Shown here one piece after another: positions 2,182 through 57,090 of a stretch of 64,000 nt of DNA. Positions within the stretch are counted from its first letter, which is position 1, and every line of letters begins with the position of its first letter. The stretch covers positions 2,333-66,332 of the forward strand of contig CAADYO010000009.1 of NCBI GenBank assembly GCA_900753325.1, in the 5' to 3' direction. The stretch is from Bacilli bacterium. Lineage in GTDB: Bacteria; Bacillota_I; Bacilli_A; RF39; UBA660. Under the pieces are notes generated by a model, which made no database searches, had not been told where the DNA came from, and worked only from the letters and a program-made list of their open reading frames with translations. Both the position numbers and the translations under genes were made by a program.

Positions 2182-2352
2182 ACCTCTTACACCTCACATT
2201 TCTACCATTGTCTTCTTGGTGATTTTATTCTAGCAAAAATAAAGCGCATTTTGACATTACTTCCGTAACTTGTATCTGTACGGACATTAATTGTTGAAAA
2301 TCCTCTTTTTTCGACAAAATTCGAGTTTTTTATATTTAAAAAATACTTTATA

Positions 2353-2408: not shown

Positions 2409-3005
2409 ATGAAAAAAGCATTTCTAGAGTCATCTTTAAGTTTTATTCAAAATTATAAAGATTTTTCTGAACATGATATTGATAAGTTACGATATGGCTT
2501 GGAAGGCATTTATCTAACAATTGAAAAACTTGTAGTGATTGTTGCTGTTAGTTTATTACTGGGTATATTAAAAGAAGTTGTTATAACTTTGGTTTTGTTT
2601 AATATCATTCGTTTTACTGGATTTGGTTTCCATGCCGAAAAAAGTATTCAATGCTTATTTATTTCATTATTTCAATTTGTCTTTGTTCCATATATTTTTA
2701 TTAGCTTACATATATCTAAATATGTTATGTTAGCTATTTGTGGAATTTGTATTATTAGTTACATATTATTTGCTCCTGCTGATACTATTAAAAGACCATT
2801 ACCAAATAAAAGAAAAAGAACCATTCGCAAATGGGCAACTGTTTTGACTGGTATTATCTATACATTAATAATAGCGTTTTTCAATTCATTTTTAACACCA
2901 TTGTTATTAAGTTCATTAATCATTGAAGCTATTGTTATTAATCCTTTACTTTATATGGCATTTAATCAACCATATAATAATTATAGGAACTACGTTCAGG
3001 CTTAA
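2409..3005 (+). CDS. agrB: AgrB-family accessory gene regulator protein B (AgrD-processing membrane cysteine endopeptidase)
   Basis: 198 aa polytopic membrane protein. GFGFHAEKSIQCLFIS places His and Cys 7 residues apart, as the catalytic H77/C84 pair of staphylococcal AgrB. It is followed by an AgrD-like peptide gene and flanked by an AgrC/AgrA-like two-component pair. Confidence 0.8.
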   Translation: MKKAFLESSLSFIQNYKDFSEHDIDKLRYGLEGIYLTIEKLVVIVAVSLLLGILKEVVITLVLFNIIRFTGFGFHAEKSIQCLFISLFQFVFVPYIFISLHISKYVMLAICGICIISYILFAPADTIKRPLPNKRKRTIRKWATVLTGIIYTLIIAFFNSFLTPLLLSSLIIEAIVINPLLYMAFNQPYNNYRNYVQA

Positions 3006-3050
3006 AATATCTAATATTTTAGCATAAATTAAAAAAGGAGGACAAATATT

Positions 3051-3173
3051 TTGAAAAGTAAAATCGCGTATTTACTATCAGCAATCGCAATGTTAGCTAC
3101 AGGAGCAGCTAGTTTAGGATGTATTTGGTTTCTTGTTGATGAACCTAAAGCTATGAAAAGTCTTTGTGATTAA
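3051..3173 (+). CDS. agrD: AgrD-like autoinducing-peptide precursor (40 codons, TTG start)
   Basis: Not in the ORF track (shorter than 60 aa). RBS AAAAAGGAGGA lies 7 nt upstream of TTG 3051. Translation: MKSKIAYLLSAIAMLATGAASLGCIWFLVDEPKAMKSLCD. It has an N-terminal amphipathic leader, a Cys followed by four hydrophobic residues (CIWFL, the thiolactone-ring geometry of staphylococcal AIPs), then an acidic D-E-P-K tail like the conserved AgrD C-terminal recognition motif. It lies directly after agrB. Confidence 0.7.
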   Translation: MKSKIAYLLSAIAMLATGAASLGCIWFLVDEPKAMKSLCD

Positions 3174-3176
3174 TTA

Positions 3177-3203
3177 AAAAGTGTCCTATTTAGACACTTT
3201 TTT
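3177..3203. terminator. Bidirectional intrinsic terminator between convergent agrBD and agrAC
   Basis: AAAAGTGTC-ctattta-GACACTTTT is a perfect 9-bp stem with A-run before and T-run after. It sits between the agrD stop (3173) and the agrC stop (3186). Confidence 0.65.
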
Positions 3204-4487
3204 CTTTATTGTAATTTCTTGAATATAATATTTGTCAATTACTTCTTGCCTTTGACTTAGCCAGGGATTTTCAGAAATTAGTTTAGAAGCAAAGTACAAA
3301 CCGTTACCATGCCCTGCACCTTTTGAGGAAACACCTTTCTTATTTCTTTCATTAAAGTTCTTAGTTTTTTTAAAAGTATTGGAGAAAACAAAAGTTACAT
3401 GATCTTTTATCTCATAAACTTCAACAAGAACTTTCTTTTTTCTTGTTTCACGAGCAGCTTCAATAGCGTTATCAAAATAAATGCCAATCAGTTGACATAA
3501 TATCTTAACATCTTTTTCAGGTAGTTTTGATAACAGCGAATGCAATTCTAGACTTACATCAACAGTTAGGTCTATTTTATTCTTTTGAGCAATGGCAGCT
3601 TTATAGTACATTAAGCCTTTGATTCCACCTTTAGGTAGTGATTTAAGTTGATGAACTACCTCGCCTTCTATATTAATACTATCTTCTAATATGTCATCAA
3701 TCTTATCTTTTACTTTCTTTTCAGAGGTAAGGCAGCGTAATACGGCTAATTGATTTTTGTACTCATGACGATTTAATTGTTCTTTTTCAATCCAATCCTC
3801 AAAGTTTTGAACATATGTAAACAAATTCTCATATTCTGAATTTAATTTTTCATAATTATTTTTACCCTTTATAAAAAAGTATGATAATAAAAAGAAAATT
3901 ATCATTATCGTAATATTTACATAATAATTTGATTCCCCGGCATTTACCATTGATACGTTTTGTCCTAATGAACTCAATCCAATAATTAGCAAAACCACAA
4001 ATAATATATTTGAAACCGATTTATTTCTCGAAATACTATTGTAGAAATTTTGTAACTGACGGAGAATAAGCTTTACTTTCAATGTAATCATGCCAAATAT
4101 TGCGACTAGAATATTGCTTAATATATATAAGTATCCAGTTGAGCGAATTTGTTTTAATGTAAAACATTTCATTAATAAAAATCCACTCATTAAATCACCA
4201 AATATTGTAAGCATCATTACTATTCCACAGGCTATAAGTGATTCTTCAACTTTTAGGTTAAACATTTCTTTATAAACAATAATTTGTAGTGCAAAAATTG
4301 CAATTGTTCCAATTCCTGCATATTCCTTTTTTGATATAAATATTGTTGCTAAGCATAATACTATAATCTGAATAATGGTTTTCGGGCTCAACACCTTTAT
4401 TTCACGATTTGTTATTTTTTCTATTACAAAAATCCCAAATATTGTCATTATCAATGCACATATTAATCTAGCGCAAACCTCTAACAT
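3186..4487 (-). CDS. agrC: AgrC-like membrane sensor histidine kinase (HPK10 family)
   Basis: 433 aa. The N-terminal about 200 aa is polytopic membrane sensor. H-box NRHEYKNQLAVL matches AgrC RHDYxN. The C-terminus has the GHKL ATPase (GAGHGNGLYFASKLI). It overlaps the upstream LytTR regulator by 20 nt. Confidence 0.8.
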   Translation of the reverse strand: MLEVCARLICALIMTIFGIFVIEKITNREIKVLSPKTIIQIIVLCLATIFISKKEYAGIGTIAIFALQIIVYKEMFNLKVEESLIACGIVMMLTIFGDLMSGFLLMKCFTLKQIRSTGYLYILSNILVAIFGMITLKVKLILRQLQNFYNSISRNKSVSNILFVVLLIIGLSSLGQNVSMVNAGESNYYVNITIMIIFFLLSYFFIKGKNNYEKLNSEYENLFTYVQNFEDWIEKEQLNRHEYKNQLAVLRCLTSEKKVKDKIDDILEDSINIEGEVVHQLKSLPKGGIKGLMYYKAAIAQKNKIDLTVDVSLELHSLLSKLPEKDVKILCQLIGIYFDNAIEAARETRKKKVLVEVYEIKDHVTFVFSNTFKKTKNFNERNKKGVSSKGAGHGNGLYFASKLISENPWLSQRQEVIDKYYIQEITIKKKVSK

Positions 4488-5199
4488 ATCTTTCTAACTC
4501 CTTTCTCTTTTCTCTAGCTACGGCTTCTAGCTTTTCATTGTTTTTAAAAGTTATTACATTTAACTTAGTATCATAATGTTCTACTTGTTCAACATTTACA
4601 TATAGGCTTCTACTACATTTTATAAAACGCTTATCTAATTCTTTAGCAATTGTACTTAAACTACCTGGCATATGATAATTTCCATTAATCGTTTTAATCA
4701 TACTTATCTTTGAGTCTTGAACTTTTTCAATATAAAGGATGTGTCTCAGTTCAATATTATATGAAACATTATGATAATTATACTTTATACTTTTAAACCT
4801 TTTATCATAATGCTTCATACATATTTGAAGGGCTTCCCTTAGTCTTTTTTCACAATTATCTAGTTTATTAATAAAGTCAACTAACATCAATCTTTTTCCT
4901 AGTGCTTCGTATTTAAATTCTGAGTATGCTGTTATTATCATTATCATTGATACCCAATCATCAAATTCTTCTCTTATTCTCCTTGCGGCATCTATACCTG
5001 AACCATTGGTTGTTTTTATATCTAGTAGATATATTTTAAAATCTTTTTCACTTTTTACAAACTCTTCCCATTTGTCTGTGTAGCCTCTGAATCTATATAT
5101 CTTATACTCTGCATCATTACTCATCATAAATTTATCAATTTCGCTTATATATTTCTTGGCTAAAATATCTTCATCTTCACATATTACAAAATTAATCAT
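4468..5199 (-). CDS. agrA: AgrA-like response regulator (receiver + LytTR DNA-binding domain)
   Basis: 243 aa. N-terminal receiver (MINFVICEDEDIL...LLDIKT). The C-terminal 100 aa have LytTR-like composition. It is translationally coupled to the histidine kinase. Confidence 0.75.
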   Translation of the reverse strand: MINFVICEDEDILAKKYISEIDKFMMSNDAEYKIYRFRGYTDKWEEFVKSEKDFKIYLLDIKTTNGSGIDAARRIREEFDDWVSMIMIITAYSEFKYEALGKRLMLVDFINKLDNCEKRLREALQICMKHYDKRFKSIKYNYHNVSYNIELRHILYIEKVQDSKISMIKTINGNYHMPGSLSTIAKELDKRFIKCSRSLYVNVEQVEHYDTKLNVITFKNNEKLEAVAREKRKELERYVRGLR

Positions 5200-5237
5200 T
5201 TTAACTCCTTATTTCCATATTTTTCCAGTTAATCAAG

Positions 5238-5268
5238 TTAAGTAAAAAGAGTACTATTACTTAGTACT
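5238..5268 (-). terminator. Intrinsic terminator downstream of tagO-like gene
   Basis: Minus-strand GGAGTACTAAGTAATAGTACTCTTTTTAC: a 9-bp stem followed by T-run. Confidence 0.5.
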
Positions 5269-5278
5269 CCTTTGTAAA

Positions 5279-9257: not shown

Positions 9258-9317
9258 ACTATCTCTCCTTCCGCCATGACAACACTTGTCATAGTAATTA
9301 AATGCGTTATTAGTATA

Positions 9318-12872: not shown

Positions 12873-13394
12873 TTAAAAATACTTATCTATTATCTCTTTA
12901 ATAAATGATGTATATTCTACATCGTCTTTTTCTGTTTCTTCTGCTTCTAATAAGCATAATGGTGGGAATAATACACACCAGAAATTATCACCTAGGCCGT
13001 CGCCTAATGTTATTACAAGAGACTCATATTCTCCCTCTTCATAGACGATATTTTTATATTCTTTTTCTGGAAAATAATTTTTTCCATAATTGATACTATA
13101 ATTATCTTTATATGACTCATTAGAAATTGTTTGCTCTACTACTTTTTCAAAATTATGAATATTTTTATTAATTATTTCCCTAGAAGTTTTTATATTCTTA
13201 GAATAGTTATTAATAGTGCGAATTTCATTTTGAAGGTTGTTTACGACTTGTTTTTTTACTTGTTGATCGTTTTCACTGTTACTATTAGCAATTACTCTAA
13301 ATCTTATGGAGTTTTTGGGTATAATAGTTTTTTCACTCTTTGTAAATGATAATAGTGCAATTAATATGCTTAAAATTATTATGGCTTTTTTCAT
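12873..13394 (-). CDS. spoIIR: SpoIIR-family secreted signalling protein (stage II sporulation protein R-like)
   Basis: 173 aa with signal peptide. IRFRVIANSNSENDQQVKKQVVNNL matches the hallmark RLHVIANSDSxxDQxLK block of SpoIIR, and WCVLFPPLC matches its C-terminal conserved region. Confidence 0.6.
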   Translation of the reverse strand: MKKAIIILSILIALLSFTKSEKTIIPKNSIRFRVIANSNSENDQQVKKQVVNNLQNEIRTINNYSKNIKTSREIINKNIHNFEKVVEQTISNESYKDNYSINYGKNYFPEKEYKNIVYEEGEYESLVITLGDGLGDNFWCVLFPPLCLLEAEETEKDDVEYTSFIKEIIDKYF

Positions 13395-44787: not shown

Positions 44788-45402
44788 TTAATCTTCTTTA
44801 GGTTTAATTACTACGTAACGGTTTGGCTCCTCGCCTTCACTTTCAGTATATACTGTTTTACTATTAGTTAAAGCATTATGAATAATTCTTCTTTCGTATG
44901 AATTCATTGAGTCTAATTTTGCTTCTACTTTTGTATTTGCTACTTCTCTAGCAATTCTTCTTGCTAGTGATTCTAGGGACTTTTCTCTTTTTTCTTTGTA
45001 AGAATTGATGTCAATTATAAATTTGAAGTTTCTTCCTAATTCGTTAAGTAAGTGCTGACTTGTTAGTATTGATAATGCTTTTAAATTTTTTCCATTTTTT
45101 CCTATTAGTAGTCCATCATTATCTGAATAAATTGTATATGTTGGTATTTCTTCTTTATTTTTGATTTCAATATTTGCTGTAAAGCCAAGGTTTTTTAGTA
45201 ACTTATTTAAATACTCTTTAATATATTTTACAACTTCTCTTTTTTCTATGACTTCTATTTCTACCTTTTTACTTTTAAATAGCCCACCTTTTATTTCTTC
45301 TAGTTCTTTTATTATTAGGTTATCTTTTGTTTCTTGTAAATCTATTGTTGCATTTGAAATTGCTTCCTCTTTTGTTTTTCCAGTATATTTATGCTTTTCC
45401 AT
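44788..45402 (-). CDS. jag: Jag/KhpB RNA-binding protein (KH + R3H domains)
   Basis: 204 aa; C-terminal R3H (SMNSYERRIIHNAL). Confidence 0.85.
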   Translation of the reverse strand: MEKHKYTGKTKEEAISNATIDLQETKDNLIIKELEEIKGGLFKSKKVEIEVIEKREVVKYIKEYLNKLLKNLGFTANIEIKNKEEIPTYTIYSDNDGLLIGKNGKNLKALSILTSQHLLNELGRNFKFIIDINSYKEKREKSLESLARRIAREVANTKVEAKLDSMNSYERRIIHNALTNSKTVYTESEGEEPNRYVVIKPKED

Positions 45403-46333
45403 TTACTTCTTTACTCCTTTTAACAATAATATTTTGAACTATAGTGAATACATTTGATGTTACCCAGTATATACCTAAGCCTGATGGCATAAATATTCCT
45501 GTTACTACAAACATAACTGTCATCATAGTTGGCATCATCTTCATTGTTGGATCTGACATATTAGCTGATGAGTTCATTTTTAATGAATAATAGGTCGTTC
45601 CAGCTATTAAAATTATTAAAATTCCGTAAGCTAACCAGTTATTTGTAAAAATACCAACTGATGGTGTTGTTCCTAATTGTAATGTTAAAAATTTGTCTTC
45701 AAATATTGATGGTGTTCTTTGAACTGCTTCAAAGAAAGCTATAAACAATGGTAATTGTAAGAATGAAAATAAGCATCCAGACATTGGATTGATATTGTGT
45801 TTCTTGTATATCATCATCATTTCTTGATTTTGTTTTAACATTGACTCTTGATCTGTTTTATTTTGATATTTTTTCTTTAATCTATCAAGTTCTGGTTGTG
45901 CTTGTTTTATTAATTCTGATTGCATAGCTGTCTTTTTTGTTACTGGATAAGCTATTAATCTTATTATTAATGTAAGAATTATTAATGATATTGCATAATT
46001 TCCAACTGTCTTACCAAAAAATATTAGAACAAAGGCTAATGGTTTTACAAAGAATGCAGTCCATAGTCCTTCATATTTACCTGATGTAATTTTAAAGTTT
46101 TCGCATTTTGGTAATTTATCTATATTTACTTTATTTTTCTTATATAATTCTCTTGTTTTCTCATTTGTTGGTTGACAAATAATATTTTTTGTTAAATTTT
46201 GTCCAGTTACTTCGTTTCTTACAGGTTTATTATTTTTATCTGTTAGTGATGTTGTACAGCCTGTTGTGATTAGTAATAATAATACTATTAAAATTATTTT
46301 AATTTTATTTGCTCTACTCTTTTTTTGCTTCAT
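45389..46333 (-). CDS. yidC: Membrane protein insertase YidC/SpoIIIJ (lipoprotein type)
   Basis: 314 aa; lipobox LLITTGC; 5-TM YidC core. Confidence 0.85.
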   Translation of the reverse strand: MKQKKSRANKIKIILIVLLLLITTGCTTSLTDKNNKPVRNEVTGQNLTKNIICQPTNEKTRELYKKNKVNIDKLPKCENFKITSGKYEGLWTAFFVKPLAFVLIFFGKTVGNYAISLIILTLIIRLIAYPVTKKTAMQSELIKQAQPELDRLKKKYQNKTDQESMLKQNQEMMMIYKKHNINPMSGCLFSFLQLPLFIAFFEAVQRTPSIFEDKFLTLQLGTTPSVGIFTNNWLAYGILIILIAGTTYYSLKMNSSANMSDPTMKMMPTMMTVMFVVTGIFMPSGLGIYWVTSNVFTIVQNIIVKRSKEVNGKA

Positions 46334-46334
46334 T

Positions 46335-46679
46335 CTATATATCCTTTCCTATATTATTAATGAGTGCAACATAGTCTTTTTCCAGTTCTTGGTATGTTTT
46401 ATTTTTCGCACTTCCTCTTAATATTATAATATAATCTTTTTTATTTATATAGTCTTTTTTTAAATTATCAATAATGGCACGTATTTTTCTTTTATATTTA
46501 TTACGATATACAGCATTTCCTAACTTTTTCCCTACGGAAATTCCATAACGATTATATGGTAAATTACTTGCTTGGTAATAGATGATAAAGCTTTTATTTT
46601 TAACAATTTTGCCTGTTTTGATTATTTTTTCAAAGTCTCTGGCACTTTTTACTATATATAATTTACGCATATAGTTCAC
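46335..46679 (-). CDS. rnpA: RNase P protein component
   Basis: 114 aa basic protein with RNR-like motif (ILRGSAKN); between rpmH and yidC. Confidence 0.85.
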   Translation of the reverse strand: MNYMRKLYIVKSARDFEKIIKTGKIVKNKSFIIYYQASNLPYNRYGISVGKKLGNAVYRNKYKRKIRAIIDNLKKDYINKKDYIIILRGSAKNKTYQELEKDYVALINNIGKDI

Positions 46680-46724
46680 CTACCTTAAATTGTAAGAGTA
46701 AAAAACCACTGTTGATGCAGCGGC

Positions 46725-46847
46725 TTATTTGCAAAGTAATTTACGCCCTTTGCGACGACGACGATTTAATATATTTGTTTTTTTGCGTGCAAAAAAGCCT
46801 AGTTTCTTTGCTTTTTTACGGTTGTTTGGTTGATATGTTCTTTTCAT
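46725..46847 (-). CDS. rpmH: 50S ribosomal protein L34
   Basis: True start is the internal MKRTYQPNNRKKAKKLGFFARKK...; the upstream 20 codons of the track ORF are spurious. Confidence 0.85.
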   Translation of the reverse strand: MKRTYQPNNRKKAKKLGFFARKKTNILNRRRRKGRKLLCK

Positions 46848-46934
46848 TTGCTCCACCTCCAGACATAAATCTACATTATTATAATAGTAATACTTGGAAT
46901 TTGTCAATTAAAATGTACTATTTTTGTTTTTTAA

Positions 46935-47065
46935 ACAGTTTCCACAGATATGTGGAATATTAAAATAAGGTGTGTGGAATAAAAATTGTGGAAAATGTGG
47001 AAAAGTTATTTTTATTATTTTATATCAATAGTTTTATTTGTGGAAAAAATTGTGGATTGTGTGTT
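46935..47065. promoter_or_regulatory. oriC part 1: DnaA-box cluster and dnaA promoter region
   Basis: At least six 9-mers within 0-2 mismatches of TTATCCACA/TGTGGATAA (TTTCCACAG, TGTGGAATA x2, TGTGGAAAA x3, TGTGGATTG) in 130 bp upstream of dnaA. Confidence 0.7.
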
Positions 47066-47155
47066 GAAAAAAATTTTTACAATAAAATTGTTTATTTTTT
47101 TCACAATTTAATGTACACTAATCGTAGTTTATTTATCTTGTGGGGAGATGGTGGA

Positions 47156-48523
47156 ATGAATGTCGATATTATATGGACCAAATTTTTGGACCAAATAAAA
47201 GATGAACTTACTTCATTATCTTTCGATACTTGGTTTGCTGATACTACGTTGCATAGATTGGAAAATGGTAAAGCATATATAATTGTTCCAATGCCAATTC
47301 ATAAGAAACATTTAATTGATAATTATTCTGATCTCATTGTAAAAACGTTAAATGAGATTACAGGTACAAATTTTGAATTGGTATTGATTTTAAAAGAAGA
47401 AATAGAGGATGTTTTGCCTAAAAAAGTGGAAATTGAACCTGAGTTAGAAGGTGTTCCTAATAATAAAATTCAGTCTAATTTAAATGTTAAATATACTTTT
47501 GATAATTTTATAGTCGGTAATAGTAACAAATTTGCTCATGCAGCAGCTCTTTCTGTGGCTGAAAATCCTGGCAAAATGTATAATCCTTTATTTATATATG
47601 GAAATAGCGGATTAGGTAAAACTCATTTAATGCACGCAATTGGTAATTATATATTAGAAAATACTAATAAAAAAGTTTTATATGTTACGTCTGATCAATT
47701 TACACAGGATTTTATAAAGGTTAATAAAAAAGATGATTCTGGCACTAATTTTAATTATATTGATTTTTTTAAGAATAAATATCGCAATATTGATGTTCTT
47801 ATTATTGATGATATTCAATTTTTAGGTGGAGCTACTAAGACTCAACAGGAATTTTTCCACACCTTTAATTCTTTATATAATGATAGTAAACAAATAATTA
47901 TTTCCTCTGATAGATCTCCAGATGATTTAAAATTACTGGAAGATCGTCTAAGAACTAGATTTTGTTGGGGATTAACTGTTAACATATTTCCACCTGATTT
48001 TTCTTTAAGAATGCAGATTTTAAAGAAAAAAATAATTGGTGGTAATTTTGAAAAAGAAATATCTGAAGATGTTATTGAGTATATTGCATCTAATATTGGC
48101 ACTGATGTTAGACAATTGGAAGGTTCAATAACAAGGCTTATTGCTTATTCAACAATAATGGGTGGAGCAGAAATAACACTTGATTTAGCAATAGAGGCAC
48201 TTAAGGACTTTATTAGCAAGGGAATGAGCGAAAAAAATGACATTCAAAGAATTCAAAAAATTGTATCCGAATATTTTCAAATATCAGTTGAGGATATTAG
48301 AAGTAAAAAGCGGAGCTCTAATATTTCTTTTCCAAGACAAATTGCTATGTACCTGTGTAGGAATATGACAAATGAATCATTTCCTAAGATAGGAACAGAA
48401 TTTGGTGGAAAAGATCATTCAACAGTAATGCATTCAGTGGAAAAGATTGAAAATGAGATAAAAGTTAATAAAGATTTAGCTAATATAATAGAAAAGTTGA
48501 AAAAGGATATAGGTATTGTGTAA
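47156..48523 (+). CDS. dnaA: Chromosomal replication initiator DnaA
   Basis: 455 aa from ATG 47156 (RBS GGAGATGG). The track ORF starts 62 codons upstream and runs through the DnaA-box region. AAA+ Walker A GNSGLGKTHL; domain IV HTH. Confidence 0.9.
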   Translation: MNVDIIWTKFLDQIKDELTSLSFDTWFADTTLHRLENGKAYIIVPMPIHKKHLIDNYSDLIVKTLNEITGTNFELVLILKEEIEDVLPKKVEIEPELEGVPNNKIQSNLNVKYTFDNFIVGNSNKFAHAAALSVAENPGKMYNPLFIYGNSGLGKTHLMHAIGNYILENTNKKVLYVTSDQFTQDFIKVNKKDDSGTNFNYIDFFKNKYRNIDVLIIDDIQFLGGATKTQQEFFHTFNSLYNDSKQIIISSDRSPDDLKLLEDRLRTRFCWGLTVNIFPPDFSLRMQILKKKIIGGNFEKEISEDVIEYIASNIGTDVRQLEGSITRLIAYSTIMGGAEITLDLAIEALKDFISKGMSEKNDIQRIQKIVSEYFQISVEDIRSKKRSSNISFPRQIAMYLCRNMTNESFPKIGTEFGGKDHSTVMHSVEKIENEIKVNKDLANIIEKLKKDIGIV

Positions 48524-48539
48524 AACTTTAAGTTATTGA

Positions 48540-48654
48540 ATTTTTATCCACAAGTAAATGTTAACAAAAATGAATGATAAATAAAGAAAAAAATAAGTTT
48601 TCAACTTTTTCCACAGTAATAATATAAATAATAAAAGAAAGAAGGAATATATAT
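48540..48654. promoter_or_regulatory. oriC part 2: DnaA boxes plus AT-rich unwinding region between dnaA and dnaN
   Basis: Perfect TTATCCACA at 48544-48552 and TTTTCCACA near 48606. The stretch between them is more than 85% AT. Confidence 0.6.
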
Positions 48655-49782
48655 ATGAAATTTACAATTAAGAAAGATTTATTATTAGATGCTTTAAATA
48701 AAGTTGCTAGAGCAATTTCTACAAAAAACTTAATTCCAGTATTGGCAGGTGTTAAGTTTGATTTAAAAAAGAAAAAATTAACATTAACAGCAAGTGATAA
48801 TGATATTACAATTCAAACTGTTATTGAAAGTAATAATGAGGATGACTTTAAAATAGAAAATGAAGGAAGTATTATTATACAAGGTAAGTATATTCTAGAT
48901 ATTGTTAGAAAATTACCAGATAAATATATTAATATAGAAGTAGTTGATGAATTAAAAATATTGATTTACACAGAAAATAGTGAATTTAATTTAAATGGAA
49001 TTAGTGAAAGTGAATATCCTAATATAGGACTTGAAGAAAGTAAGAAAAAAGTTAGTATTAATGCTGGAATTTTTAAAAATATTGTTAATCAAACTGCTTT
49101 TGCTTCTTCAAATGAAGAAAGTAAACCTGTTCTTACGGGAATTAATTTTAATATAGTAGGGGATGTTTTAGAGTGTAATTCAACAGATTCTTATCGTTTA
49201 GCTAGAAAAATAGTTAAATTAGATAAGGAAAGTGAAGAAAATTATAATATTGTAATTCCAAGTCATAATATAGTAGAATTTTGTAAGATTTTAACTGATG
49301 ATGATGAAACTGTTGAATTACATATATTTAATAATAAAATATTATTTAAAACTGGTAATTTAAAATTTGAATCAAGGTTAATTAATGGTACATATCCTAA
49401 TACTTCAAATTTATTACCAGATGATTCTTTATTAGTAGTTAGTACAAATCTTAACGATTTTTATGATGTTATTGATCGTGTAAGTATTTTAACTAGCGAT
49501 AAAGAAAAAAATATTGTTACTTTAGAAACTGTTGATGATGTATTGATTCTTAGAAGTAGTTCTGCTGAGATTGGTAGAGTTGAAGAAAAAATGCCAATTA
49601 CCAAAAATAATAATGAAAATATTAAAATTTCATTTAGTGCAAAATACATGATGGAAGCATTAAAAAGTTTTTCCACAGAAACTGTTGATATTCATTTTGT
49701 AGGTGAAATTAAACCAATTTTAATTAAATCTAGTGAAGATACAAGTCTTACTCAATTAGTTTTACCTATAAGAACTTATTAA
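48655..49782 (+). CDS. dnaN: DNA polymerase III beta sliding clamp
   Basis: 375 aa; MKFTIKKDLLLDALNKVARAIS. Confidence 0.9.
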   Translation: MKFTIKKDLLLDALNKVARAISTKNLIPVLAGVKFDLKKKKLTLTASDNDITIQTVIESNNEDDFKIENEGSIIIQGKYILDIVRKLPDKYINIEVVDELKILIYTENSEFNLNGISESEYPNIGLEESKKKVSINAGIFKNIVNQTAFASSNEESKPVLTGINFNIVGDVLECNSTDSYRLARKIVKLDKESEENYNIVIPSHNIVEFCKILTDDDETVELHIFNNKILFKTGNLKFESRLINGTYPNTSNLLPDDSLLVVSTNLNDFYDVIDRVSILTSDKEKNIVTLETVDDVLILRSSSAEIGRVEEKMPITKNNNENIKISFSAKYMMEALKSFSTETVDIHFVGEIKPILIKSSEDTSLTQLVLPIRTY

Positions 49783-56963: not shown

Positions 56964-56992
56964 TTTACAAAAAGTTACATATATATTAGAAT
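56964..56992 (+). promoter_or_regulatory. Sigma-A promoter of ffs (SRP RNA)
   Basis: -35 TTTACA (56964-56969), 17-bp spacer, -10 TAGAAT (56987-56992); transcription start about 6-8 nt downstream. Confidence 0.6.
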
Positions 56993-56998
56993 AATATC

Positions 56999-57079
56999 GT
57001 GCAATGAAAGCGGTGGAAACAGGTCAGGATTGGAAAATAGCAGCCTTAACATTAAACTTTCATGTGCACTTTTTATTTT
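56999..57079 (+). ncRNA. ffs: Small (4.5S-type) signal recognition particle RNA
   Basis: ACAGGUCAGG-AUU-GGAA-AAU-AGCAGCC reproduces the universally conserved SRP RNA domain IV (helix 8): symmetric loop AGG / AGCAGCC closed by a 3-bp stem and GGAA tetraloop. The terminal stem GUGCAAUGAAAG / CUUUCAUGUGCAC closes the hairpin. A U-tract (TTTTTATTTT, 57070-57079) follows. The ORF-track N-terminus of the tadA ORF (57004) overlaps this RNA and is spurious. Confidence 0.65.
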
Positions 57080-57090
57080 GGGTGATTATT

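What the first reader, a model, noticed from the sequence alone, without database searches (positions are those of the whole stretch)
3051..3173. Unannotated AgrD autoinducing-peptide gene with predicted five-residue thiolactone core CIWFL
The 40-aa ORF (TTG start, strong RBS) is too short for the ORF track. It has the three-part AgrD architecture: an amphipathic leader MKSKIAYLLSAIAMLATGAA; a core SLGCIWFL in which Cys is followed by exactly four hydrophobic residues, the ring size of all staphylococcal AIPs; and an acidic or proline-containing recognition tail VDEPKAMKSLCD. That tail resembles the conserved D-E-x-E-V-P-K-E-L of AgrD.

The mature signal is probably a short tail plus the cyclo(CIWFL) thiolactone. 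The W-F-L ring is unusually aromatic and hydrophobic.
Basis: partly seen in the sequence, partly recalled or inferred. Interest (0 to 1): 0.6.

Follow-up and report, generated by a model that had tools for sequence, protein, structure and literature searches.

The report
Uncalled AgrD quorum-sensing peptide gene
A real but never-annotated 40-codon gene in an uncultured, small-genome gut bacterium (order RF39) encodes the precursor of a cyclic quorum-sensing peptide of the well-known agr type; it exists in at least five variants within the species, each paired with its own receptor variant, and the ring is probably six residues, not five.

Summary
The ORF at 3051..3173 (+) is present as described and is a genuine agrD gene. 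It lies 45 nt after agrB, has an AGGAGG site 9 nt upstream and is followed by a terminator. A convergent agrC-agrA pair faces it.

- **Conservation:** all 41 related loci keep the frame, the start position, an invariant Cys and an invariant Glu-Pro.
- **Coding signal:** substitution patterns are those of a coding sequence, and all five other frames are closed.
- **Family membership:** the peptide scores just below NCBI's AgrD cutoff (17.1 against 19 bits), but relatives pass and one is named "cyclic lactone autoinducer peptide".
- **Annotation:** the gene was not called in any of 18 conspecific public loci, so "unannotated" holds.
- **Pherotypes:** the species carries at least five agrD alleles. 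Divergence starts at the Cys codon and runs through agrC, whose sensor half is 51-89% identical and kinase half 93-96%. agrB and agrA stay at about 99%.

- **Ring size:** the ring is more likely six residues (CIWFLV), as in C. acetobutylicum.
- **Leader:** it is signal-peptide-like, not amphipathic.
- **Trp/Phe ring:** it is ordinary among clostridial AIPs (C. perfringens has CLWFT).

Verdict: a new member of a known kind, of moderate interest.

The parts
2266..2295 (+). Candidate AgrA (LytTR) binding site: two boxes, TAACTTGTA (2266-2274) and TTAATTGTT (2287-2295), with starts 21 nt apart
   Evidence: The pair sits at the same position (-143/-146) with 21-nt spacing in the 9 closest relatives. 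It is unique in the window; weaker matches are within chance. Binding by AgrA is inferred from the geometry, not shown.
2310..2324 (+). Conserved TTCGACAAAATTCGA element (TTCGA[C] repeated with a 10-nt period) upstream of agrB; role unknown (promoter element or operator)
   Evidence: Invariant in the 11-sequence alignment and recognisable in most of the wider clade. There is only one exact copy in the 64-kb window.
2409..3005 (+). agrB: membrane cysteine endopeptidase that removes the AgrD follower and forms the thiolactone
   Evidence: Pfam AgrB scores 99 bits against a cutoff of 23. H75 and C82 (FGFHAEKSIQC) are invariant in 41 sequences. There are several hydrophobic segments.
3036..3041 (+). 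Shine-Dalgarno AGGAGG of agrD
   Evidence: Read directly. An AGGAG(G) site lies at the same distance in all relatives.
3051..3119 (+). agrD leader, residues 1-23 (MKSKIAYLLSAIAMLATGAASLG): signal-peptide-like membrane-targeting leader
   Evidence: Positions -11 to -1 before the Cys are highly conserved (entropy 0-1.7 bits). The nucleotides are identical in 4 of 5 conspecific alleles. The leader has 2 charged residues and a low hydrophobic moment.
3120..3137 (+). agrD core: Cys24 plus the variable cassette I25-V29 (CIWFLV); predicted macrocycle (6 residues favoured, 5 possible)
   Evidence: Cys is invariant in 154/154. Entropy at +1, +3, +4 and +5 is 2.5-3.3 bits, and +2 is Trp in 143/154. In the cassette there are 94 synonymous against 1116 nonsynonymous differences. 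Allelic divergence within the species starts at the Cys wobble base.
3138..3173 (+). agrD follower D30-D40 (DEPKAMKSLCD) plus stop: AgrB recognition tail, removed on cyclisation
   Evidence: Position +6 is D/E in 152/154, and E31 and P32 are invariant. hhalign places it on the YEPK follower of characterised AgrDs.
3176..3202 (.). Hairpin terminator between the convergent agrBD and agrCA units; it overlaps the agrC stop codon
   Evidence: Stem of 10 pairs followed by a T-run. The hairpin is kept, with compensated changes (GTGTC/GACAC to GCGTC/GACGC), in other alleles.
3186..4487 (-). agrC: sensor histidine kinase with an N-terminal polytopic sensor (about residues 1-210) and a C-terminal kinase
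   Evidence: Pfam HATPase_c_5 scores 36.7 bits, and NCBIfam AgrC matches full-length but weakly. There are 6-7 hydrophobic segments in residues 4-206 and an H-box RHEYKNQ with invariant H241. Sensor conservation is 0.41-0.60 against 0.66-0.90 for the kinase. The sensor co-varies with the agrD allele.
4468..5199 (-). agrA: LytTR-family response regulator
   Evidence: Pfam LytTR scores 51.2 bits, and NCBIfam AgrA matches full-length but weakly. D60, E8/D9 and K112 are invariant.

Best explanation
The ORF at 3051..3173 is agrD. It encodes the ribosomal precursor of the autoinducing peptide of a complete agr-type quorum-sensing circuit: agrB-agrD, facing a convergent agrC-agrA pair. The host is an uncultured RF39-order gut bacterium.

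**Proposed mechanism**
1. The signal-peptide-like leader takes the 40-aa precursor to the membrane.
2. AgrB (His75/Cys82) cuts off the follower DEPKAMKSLCD and joins the new C-terminus to Cys24 as a thiolactone.
3. The leader is then removed, probably directly before Cys24.
4. A tailless thiolactone would rearrange spontaneously (S-to-N acyl shift) to the all-amide cyclopeptide.
5. The released macrocycle binds the polytopic sensor of the strain's own AgrC.
6. AgrC phosphorylates AgrA on Asp60.
7. AgrA activates transcription, probably through the 21-nt-spaced boxes upstream of agrB.

The most likely macrocycle is cyclo(CIWFLV). The less likely alternative is cyclo(CIWFL).

**Shown here**
- The gene is real and under purifying selection, and it belongs to the AgrD family.
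- The partner genes carry their catalytic residues.
- The peptide core and the receptor sensor co-diversify within the species, giving at least 5 pherotypes.

**Inferred**
Ring size, N-terminal cut site, S-to-N rearrangement, the AgrA boxes, autoinduction and the regulon.
For: **Context**
- agrB: Pfam 99 bits. AgrC-like HATPase_c_5 kinase and LytTR regulator next to it.

**Conservation**
- 41/41 loci keep the ORF, RBS and start position.
- C24, E31 and P32 are invariant.
- Coding-type substitution pattern, with all other frames closed.

**Family membership**
- TIGR04223 AgrD: the window scores 17.1 bits.
- 35/47 family members hit the model (best E = 1.1e-7), and two tested members score above the cutoff of 19 (21.0 and 24.5 bits).
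- hhalign against characterised AgrDs gives E = 6.5e-5, with Cys and E-P in register.
- NCBI names member P0072 'cyclic lactone autoinducer peptide'.

**Enzyme and receptor residues**
- AgrB H75/C82, AgrC H241 and AgrA D60 are invariant.

**Ligand-receptor coupling**
- In strains with AgrB at least 99% identical there are five agrD alleles: CIWFLV, CIWVLV, CMWIVI, CMWFVM and CSWIIV.
- Each allele is paired with its own AgrC sensor half. Identity to the window's sensor is 100, 89, 51, 60 and 52% respectively, while the kinase half stays at 93-96%.
- Nucleotide identity is 99-100% up to the Cys codon. It is divergent through agrC and returns to 99-100% from the agrC/agrA junction.
- The species pair L003/L031 shows the same pattern.

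**Ring size of six**
- The C-x5-[DE]-E-P spacing equals that of C. acetobutylicum (C-VLVTL|YEPK), whose AIP is a detected 6-membered tailless macrocycle. Listeria (C-FMFV|YEPK) makes a 5-ring (PMC12312760; PMC8251862).
- The boundary between variable and conserved positions lies between +5 and +6.

**Tailless product**
- All clostridial AIPs detected lack an N-terminal extension (PMC8251862).
- The C. thermocellum leader is cut directly before the ring residue (PMC5322536).
- The N-flank is invariant, and allelic divergence begins at the Cys.
Against: - The window's own peptide is below the curated AgrD cutoff (17.1 against 19 bits). Pfam's AgrD model gives nothing.
- The hhalign probability is only 64%.
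- No expression, peptide or binding data exist; the organism is uncultured.
- The ring-size rule rests on three calibrators. S. aureus and C. thermocellum lack the first Pro, so they cannot test it.
- The follower also varies after D-E-P within the species. This weakens the argument that the variable cassette equals the ring.
- The candidate AgrA boxes are conserved only in the 9 closest relatives.
- The most conserved upstream element, TTCGACAAAATTCGA, does not have LytTR-type spacing.
Confidence: 0.9

Rival explanations
1. It is agrD as above, but the first reader's chemistry is right. AgrB would cut between L28 and V29, giving a five-membered ring CIWFL with or without a short N-terminal tail. 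The signal would remain a thiolactone.
For: - Five-membered rings are the commonest among characterised AIPs: staphylococci, Listeria, C. perfringens and L. plantarum (PMC12312760 Table 1).
- CIWFL is close to the C. perfringens ring CLWFT.
- Position +4 is always hydrophobic enough to serve as the acyl donor.
Against: - With a 5-ring, the first follower residue (+5) would be hypervariable (3.27 bits; V, I, S, A, F, L, M, W). In characterised systems the first follower residue is conserved: Y, H or D.
- The spacing to E-P-K matches the 6-ring C. acetobutylicum precursor, not the 5-ring Listeria one.
- hhalign needs a one-residue gap to align the family with the mostly 5-ring templates.
- A persistent thiolactone needs an N-terminal extension, and no clostridial AIP detected so far has one (PMC8251862).
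Confidence: 0.3
2. The ORF encodes a tiny lipoprotein or lipopeptide. The leader plus A-S-L-G-C would be a lipoprotein signal peptide, processed by Lgt and signal peptidase II. That would leave a 17-residue lipid-anchored peptide unrelated to AgrB.
For: - The leader has a basic N-terminus, a hydrophobic core and a small-residue/Gly-Cys junction.
- There are weak NCBIfam lipoprotein-signal hits in 9/47 members (LP_plasma, best E = 0.0011; P0072 scores 18.1 bits against a cutoff of 24).
- The leader is signal-peptide-like rather than amphipathic.
Against: - All lipoprotein hits are below cutoff.
- The ORF lies about 50 nt after agrB in 41/41 genomes.
- The conserved D/E-E-P follower and the AgrD model hits have no place in a lipoprotein.
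- The residues after the Cys are hypervariable and co-vary with the AgrC sensor, which a membrane anchor would not explain.
- C. perfringens AgrD has the same kind of leader (..ATSAC) and is an established AIP precursor.
- No lgt or lsp gene was found among the 20 additional window ORFs scanned against Pfam. That is only a small part of the genome.
Confidence: 0.03
3. It is a chance ORF or a non-coding spacer between agrB and the terminator.
For: - Short ORFs are frequent in AT-rich DNA.
- Gene callers did not call it in 18 conspecific loci.
- It has a TTG start.
Against: - The frame, start position and RBS are conserved in 41/41 loci.
- Invariant residues use synonymous codons, and there is a third-position excess.
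- The five other frames are closed in 25/25 sequences.
- A profile search finds 642 homologous peptides with E at or below 0.01.
Confidence: 0.01

Closest known systems
Clostridium acetobutylicum agrBD / agrCA and its AIP [CVLVTL]
   Same: - agrBD and agrCA are separate transcription units (PMC12312760 Table 1).
- The precursor has the same spacing, C-x5-(Y/D)-E-P-K (P0139).
- The product is a 6-membered macrocycle without an N-terminal extension (PMC8251862). That is the model adopted here.
   Different: - The C. acetobutylicum leader is long, charged and amphipathic (10 charged residues, hydrophobic moment 0.57). Here it is a short hydrophobic signal-peptide-like leader.
- Its follower has the P-x-x-P pair, whereas this family has a single Pro.
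- The ring here is rich in Trp and Phe.
- agrCA is convergent with agrBD here.
Clostridium perfringens AgrD and AIP [CLWFT]
   Same: - Same type of leader: MKK.., a hydrophobic stretch and small residues before the Cys.
- Similar size (44 aa).
- C-x-W-F in the ring, and an E-P-K in the follower (P0141).
- The likely AIP is tailless (PMC7300355).
   Different: - C. perfringens has C-x4 before H-Q-P and makes a 5-ring.
- Its locus lacks agrCA, and VirS/VirR has been proposed as its sensor (PMC7300355).
- Its Agr-like operon is described as highly conserved among strains (PMC7300355). This species has at least 5 alleles.
Staphylococcus aureus agrBDCA specificity groups I-IV
   Same: - Within-species allelic variants in which the AIP-coding part of agrD and the AgrC sensor diverge together while AgrA stays conserved (PMC12312760; here).
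- AgrB His/Cys pair with H-x6-C spacing. The S. aureus numbering His77/Cys84 is from memory.
- The follower begins with D-E.
   Different: - S. aureus has a single operon plus RNAIII. Its hypervariable tract includes the agrB 3' part, and its AIPs are 5-rings with 2-4 residue tails.
- Here the units are convergent and agrB is about 99% conserved among pherotypes.
- The divergent tract runs from the agrD Cys codon through the whole of agrC.
- No RNAIII-like gene is evident.
Ruminiclostridium cellulolyticum Rc-AIP1 (cAIP, CWFWSY)
   Same: A six-residue, Trp/Phe-rich, tailless macrocycle. It forms as a thiolactone and rearranges to a homodetic cyclopeptide (PMC8251862). That is the chemistry predicted here if the leader is cut before the Cys.
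   Different: - A different lineage (Clostridia).
- Its function (sporulation control) has been shown experimentally, whereas nothing has been tested here.

Membership tests
AgrD family cyclic (thio)lactone autoinducer peptide precursors (NCBIfam TIGR04223 / Pfam PF05931) | Match to the curated family model above its cutoff | tested here: inconclusive
   - The window peptide scores 17.1 bits on TIGR04223 against a cutoff of 19 (E = 0.0045), and gets no Pfam hit.
- The family straddles the cutoff. 35/47 members hit the model (best E = 1.1e-7), two tested members pass (21.0 and 24.5 bits), and conspecific alleles score 15.6, 17.7 or nothing.
- The C. acetobutylicum control scores 38.8.
- hhalign against characterised AgrDs gives E = 6.5e-5.
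AgrD family cyclic (thio)lactone autoinducer peptide precursors | Small ORF (about 40-55 aa) immediately adjacent to, and co-oriented with, an agrB gene | tested here: met
   The 40-aa ORF starts 45 nt after the agrB stop on the same strand. The same arrangement is found in 41/41 related loci.
AgrD family cyclic (thio)lactone autoinducer peptide precursors | Tripartite build: membrane-targeting leader, core with a conserved Cys (or Ser), and a charged follower with a conserved Pro | tested here: met
   - Cys24 is invariant in 154/154.
- The follower has D/E at +6 and invariant E-P at +7/+8.
- The leader is conserved and hydrophobic.
- The leader is of the C. perfringens (signal-peptide-like) type, not the amphipathic staphylococcal type.
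AgrD family cyclic (thio)lactone autoinducer peptide precursors | Processed by AgrB to a (thio)lactone macrocycle that is secreted | not testable with these tools
   This needs mass spectrometry or heterologous agrBD expression. Predicted masses are given.
agr-type quorum-sensing circuit (AgrB-AgrD-AgrC-AgrA) | AgrB endopeptidase with the catalytic His and Cys | tested here: met
   Pfam AgrB scores 99 bits. H75 and C82 (H-x6-C) are invariant in 41 sequences.
agr-type quorum-sensing circuit (AgrB-AgrD-AgrC-AgrA) | Cognate polytopic HPK10-type histidine kinase and LytTR response regulator in the locus | tested here: met
   - Kinase: HATPase_c_5 domain, 6-7 hydrophobic segments and invariant H241.
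- Regulator: LytTR domain with invariant D60.
- Scores against the staphylococcal equivalog models are far below their cutoffs (46 against 500; 54 against 400). These are therefore homologues, not orthologues in the strict NCBIfam sense.
agr-type quorum-sensing circuit (AgrB-AgrD-AgrC-AgrA) | Peptide and receptor sensor domain co-vary (specificity groups) | tested here: met
   There are five agrD alleles within one species, each with its own AgrC sensor half (51-89% identity). Kinase identity is 93-96% and AgrB 99%. The tract boundaries are sharp.
agr-type quorum-sensing circuit (AgrB-AgrD-AgrC-AgrA) | Autoinduction through AgrA binding to direct repeats upstream of agrB | tested here: inconclusive
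   Boxes TAACTTGTA and TTAATTGTT lie 21 nt apart and are conserved in the 9 closest relatives only. A different element (TTCGACAAAATTCGA) is the one conserved across the clade. No binding data exist.
Bacterial lipoprotein signal peptide (lipobox) | Match to lipoprotein signal models above cutoff, and a mature lipoprotein domain after the Cys | tested here: not met
   Only sub-cutoff hits were found (LP_plasma 18.1 against 24 bits; 9/47 members). Only 16 residues follow the Cys, and 11 of them match an AgrD follower.

The most novel reading that the evidence does not exclude
The RF39 peptides are Trp/Phe-rich six-membered macrocycles (here CIWFLV) that closely resemble the C. perfringens signal CLWFT. 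They resemble even more the synthetic six-membered analogue 6-R (CLWFTH), which inhibits C. perfringens Agr signalling and toxin production in some strains (PMC7300355).

The most novel reading not excluded is that these abundant, uncultured, small-genome gut commensals do two things:
- They run a strain-level 'pherotype' recognition system, with at least 5 alleles in one species and 132 distinct cores in 154 peptides.
- Their secreted cyclopeptides cross-inhibit the Agr/VirS signalling of clostridial pathogens in the gut.
Probability: 0.1. Interest if true: 0.75.

Novelty: new member of a known kind. Interest (0 to 1): 0.45.

Why it matters
**Annotation**
- A real signalling gene is missed in every public assembly of this species. 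It is short, starts with TTG and scores just under the curated model's cutoff.
- The same probably applies to many agrD genes in metagenome-assembled genomes.

**Biology**
- RF39 bacteria are uncultured gut organisms; the longest contig carrying this exact AgrB is 1.13 Mb.
- They keep a complete, syntenic agr circuit about 44 kb from dnaA.
- They have diversified it into multiple pherotypes within a species. This suggests that strain-level peptide signalling, or interference between strains, matters to them.

**Practical use**
- The predicted peptides are small and easy to synthesise.
- They could serve as probes or growth cues for cultivating RF39.
- They could also be tested for cross-talk with C. 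perfringens.
- The 5- versus 6-residue ring question decides which molecule to synthesise.

Tried and rejected
- **Pfam scans.** Scanning the peptide and all 47 family members gave no AgrD hit. Pfam's model is too staphylococcus-centred to be informative.
- **Repeat finder upstream of agrB.** It reported only a window-specific 10-mer pair 30 nt apart (GACATTACTT / GACATTAATT) and AT-rich palindromes. These are not conserved in relatives, so I dropped them in favour of the boxes seen in the alignment.
- **Promoter scan.** It found 27 sites against 22 expected, so it is not informative. I could not place the agrB promoter.
- **Regulon search.** Searching the window for further copies of the AgrA-like boxes or the TTCGAC element gave nothing beyond chance.
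- **Supplementary tables.** Those of PMC8251862 and PMC11953309, wanted for precursor sequences and to see whether this family had been mined, are not held.
- **Literature.** No paper links RF39 with agr or AIP signalling. Absence from this library does not prove it is unpublished.
- **Leader peptidase.** I scanned 20 further window ORFs against Pfam for one (Lsp, Lgt, SPase I, CPBP/MroQ type). None was found. The window is only about 6% of the genome, so this says little.
- **Alternative Pro alignment.** I considered aligning P32 with the second, 'highly conserved' Pro of the P-x-x-P motif. That would imply a 3-residue ring, so I rejected it.
- **Structure prediction.** I did not use it. A single-chain model of a 40-aa precursor would not resolve the cleavage site, and an AgrB-AgrD complex cannot be submitted.
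Full report
**1. The observation**

Window 3051..3173 (+) is an open frame. It starts with TTG and ends with TAA, and it encodes MKSKIAYLLSAIAMLATGAASLGCIWFLVDEPKAMKSLCD.
- AGGAGG lies at 3036-3041, 9 nt upstream.
- A 10-pair hairpin with a T-run follows at 3176-3202.
- Upstream on the same strand is a 198-aa protein that matches Pfam AgrB at 99 bits (cutoff 23).
- Downstream, on the opposite strand and converging on the same terminator, are a 433-aa histidine kinase (HATPase_c_5; weak full-length match to AgrC) and a 243-aa LytTR response regulator (weak full-length match to AgrA).

**2. Is it a gene?**

A 40-codon ORF in DNA of 28.8% GC proves nothing, so I used comparative data.
- A scan of one genome per species found 41 agrB loci with 43-75% AgrB identity. 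All come from uncultured gut 'Bacilli', 'Tenericutes' or 'Mycoplasma sp. CAG:877' metagenome bins.
- In 41 of 41 there is a 38-41 aa ORF about 50 nt after agrB.
- Each has a Shine-Dalgarno site and a start codon at the same position: 27 ATG, 9 TTG and 6 GTG, counting the window. This fixes the TTG at 3051 as the start.
- A13, A20, G23, C24, E31 and P32 are invariant in 47 sequences.
- Across 25 gapless members, leader codons differ mainly at third positions (1005/445/2318).
- The invariant residues use synonymous codons.
- The other five frames contain stops in all 25.

It is a coding gene under purifying selection.

**3. Is it AgrD?**

- The curated NCBIfam model TIGR04223 matches the window peptide over residues 4-38 at 17.1 bits, just under its cutoff of 19. 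Pfam's AgrD model finds nothing.
- At family level, 35 of 47 members hit TIGR04223 (best E = 1.1e-7).
- In a spot check, two members pass the cutoff (21.0 and 24.5 bits). The window's conspecific alleles score 15.6, 17.7 or nothing, and the C. acetobutylicum control scores 38.8.
- A profile search finds 642 related peptides. NCBI names one of them (P0072) 'cyclic lactone autoinducer peptide [Bacilli bacterium]'.
- I fetched characterised AgrDs from the database, using remembered sequences only as bait. The family profile aligns with them at E = 6.5e-5, with Cys on Cys and E-P on E-P.
- The partner proteins carry the expected residues, all invariant across the clade:
  - AgrB: H75 and C82 with H-x6-C spacing.
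  - AgrC: H241 in RHEYKNQ, behind 6-7 hydrophobic segments.
  - AgrA: D60.

**4. The strongest functional evidence: pherotypes**

The window's exact AgrB is on 70 public contigs. I fetched 18 loci whose AgrB is at least 99% identical. They carry five agrD alleles.

| Core | Loci | AgrC sensor identity to the window |
|---|---|---|
| CIWFLV | window and 8 others | 100% |
| CIWVLV | 2 | 89% |
| CMWIVI | 2 | 51% |
| CMWFVM | 5 | 59-60% |
| CSWIIV | 1 | 52% |

- The kinase half stays at 93-96% in the intact genes.
- At nucleotide level, identity to the window is 99-100% from hpf through agrB and the agrD leader.
- Identity breaks exactly at the wobble base of the Cys codon. It is 55-73% in the agrC sensor half and about 91-93% in the kinase half.
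- It returns to 99-100% at the agrC/agrA junction.
- The species pair L003/L031 shows the same pattern.
- Across 154 unique family peptides there are 132 distinct cores.
- In the cassette, nonsynonymous differences outnumber synonymous ones 1116 to 94.

This is the signature of a ligand and its receptor diversifying together, as in the S. aureus agr groups (PMC12312760). The layout differs: agrB is not part of the variable tract, and the tract spans the whole convergent agrC.

**5. What is the mature signal?**

*Ring size*
- The family pattern is G-C-x5-[D/E]-E-P. Positions +1, +3, +4 and +5 are hypervariable (2.5-3.3 bits).
- Position +2 is Trp in 143/154. Position +6 is D/E in 152/154.
- The database sequences of characterised precursors read as follows:

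| Species | Precursor around the ring | Ring |
|---|---|---|
| Listeria | ..KA-C-FMFV\|YEPKSP | CFMFV, 5 residues |
| C. acetobutylicum | ..GK-C-VLVTL\|YEPKMP | CVLVTL, 6 residues, tailless, detected by MS |
| C. perfringens | ..SA-C-LWFT\|HQPEEPK | CLWFT, 5 residues |

- Rings are taken from PMC12312760 Table 1, PMC8251862 and PMC7300355.
- In all three the ring ends two residues before the first Pro. Applied here, that gives C-IWFLV|DEPK, a six-membered macrocycle.
- The boundary between variable and conserved positions lies at +5/+6.
- In S. aureus (from memory), D-E directly follows the ring.
- I put about 0.65 on the 6-ring and 0.3 on the 5-ring.

*N-terminal end*
- All clostridial AIPs detected so far lack an N-terminal extension. 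They rearrange by S-to-N acyl shift to all-amide cyclopeptides (PMC8251862).
- In C. thermocellum the leader is cut directly before the ring residue (PMC5322536).
- Here the flank before the Cys (A-T-G-A-A-S-[L/M]-G) is almost invariant, and allelic divergence starts at the Cys. This suggests the flank is a processing site rather than part of the specificity-bearing signal.
- A tailless product that rearranges to a homodetic cyclo(CIWFLV) is therefore the most likely outcome. This is inference.

*Other details*
- The leader has two charged residues and a hydrophobic moment of 0.27. The Listeria and C. acetobutylicum leaders score 0.48-0.57. It is signal-peptide-like, as in C. perfringens, not amphipathic.
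- The W-F-rich ring is not unusual among clostridial AIPs (CLWFT, CWFWSY, CPWII).

**6. Regulation**

- Upstream of agrB, TAACTTGTA (2266-2274) and TTAATTGTT (2287-2295) start 21 nt apart. That is the geometry expected for LytTR regulators. The pair is conserved in the nine closest relatives.
- The element conserved across the clade is a different one, TTCGACAAAATTCGA(C) at 2310-2324.
- Both are unique in the window.
- Autoinduction is plausible but unproven.

**7. Rivals**

- The leader plus A-S-L-G-C resembles a lipoprotein signal, and a few members give sub-cutoff lipoprotein hits.
- Four things argue against this: the fixed position after agrB, the AgrD-type follower, co-variation with the AgrC sensor, and the same leader type in the established C. 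perfringens AgrD.
- A chance ORF is excluded by section 2.

**8. Organism, annotation status and novelty**

- The related bins include Candidatus Faecimonas, which is GTDB genus CAG-877, order RF39, family CAG-611 (PMC8035907).
- The block hpf-csp-agrB-agrD followed by convergent agrC-agrA is syntenic across the clade.
- The exact peptide is absent from the protein collection. No gene is called at this position in any of the 18 conspecific loci.
- The closest called homologue, P0001 (88% identical), has an ATG start.
- Gut AIPs have already been mined at scale (PMC11953309). I found no paper linking RF39 with agr.

This is a new, unannotated member of a known kind. The added value is the within-species pherotype series and the corrected ring prediction.

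Noticed in passing
window 3121-4490 (agrD core through agrC), compared with L048-L059: There is a within-species allelic tract with at least five agrD/agrC pherotypes and razor-sharp boundaries. The left boundary is the wobble base of the agrD Cys codon and the right one is the agrC/agrA junction. Unlike in S. aureus, agrB lies outside the variable tract.
   Followed up: yes
window 2310-2324 (+): TTCGACAAAATTCGA(C) is TTCGA(C) repeated with a 10-nt period. It is conserved upstream of agrB across most of the RF39 clade, more strongly than the LytTR-like boxes. There is a single copy in the window. Its binder or role is unknown.
   Followed up: partly
L049, L052-L055 (about 3600-4400); L003 4800-6100: The gap between the convergent agrD and agrC is an insertion hot spot. 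An IS200-type Y1 transposase fragment (90 aa) sits there in the CMWFVM-allele strains, and L003 has an insertion of about 1.35 kb. In L055 the agrC reading frame is disrupted, so that strain may be signal-blind.
   Followed up: partly
window 12873-13394 (-): A SpoIIR (stage II sporulation protein R) homologue scores 135.6 bits on Pfam, in what appears to be a genome of about 1.1 Mb. agr systems control sporulation in several Clostridia, so sporulation is a candidate output of this circuit.
   Followed up: no
window 44788-49782: This is the replication-origin neighbourhood: jag and yidC on the minus strand, dnaA (46970-48523) on the plus strand followed by a 375-aa ORF (not scanned), and a switch in gene strand at about 46.7-47.0 kb. 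The agr locus lies about 44 kb from dnaA.
   Followed up: partly
window 5200-5278 (-), upstream of agrA: The short intergenic region has a hairpin (GGAGTACT..AGTACTCT plus T-run) after the glycosyltransferase gene. After it comes ACTTAACTTGATTAACTGG, which contains a TAACTTG motif like box 1 upstream of agrB. This may be a separate agrAC promoter or operator.
   Followed up: no
window 56990-57085 (+) and 9265-9294 (-): Rfam finds a small bacterial SRP RNA (51.7 bits) and an L31-Firmicutes ribosomal protein leader (34.7 bits). No rRNA was found in the window.
   Followed up: no
window 3165-3167 (Cys39) and relatives: A second Cys near the C-terminus of the follower (..SLCD) is conserved in the window's genus but replaced by N or K in most of the family (C in 27/154). 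It lies in the part removed by AgrB, and its significance is unknown.
   Followed up: no
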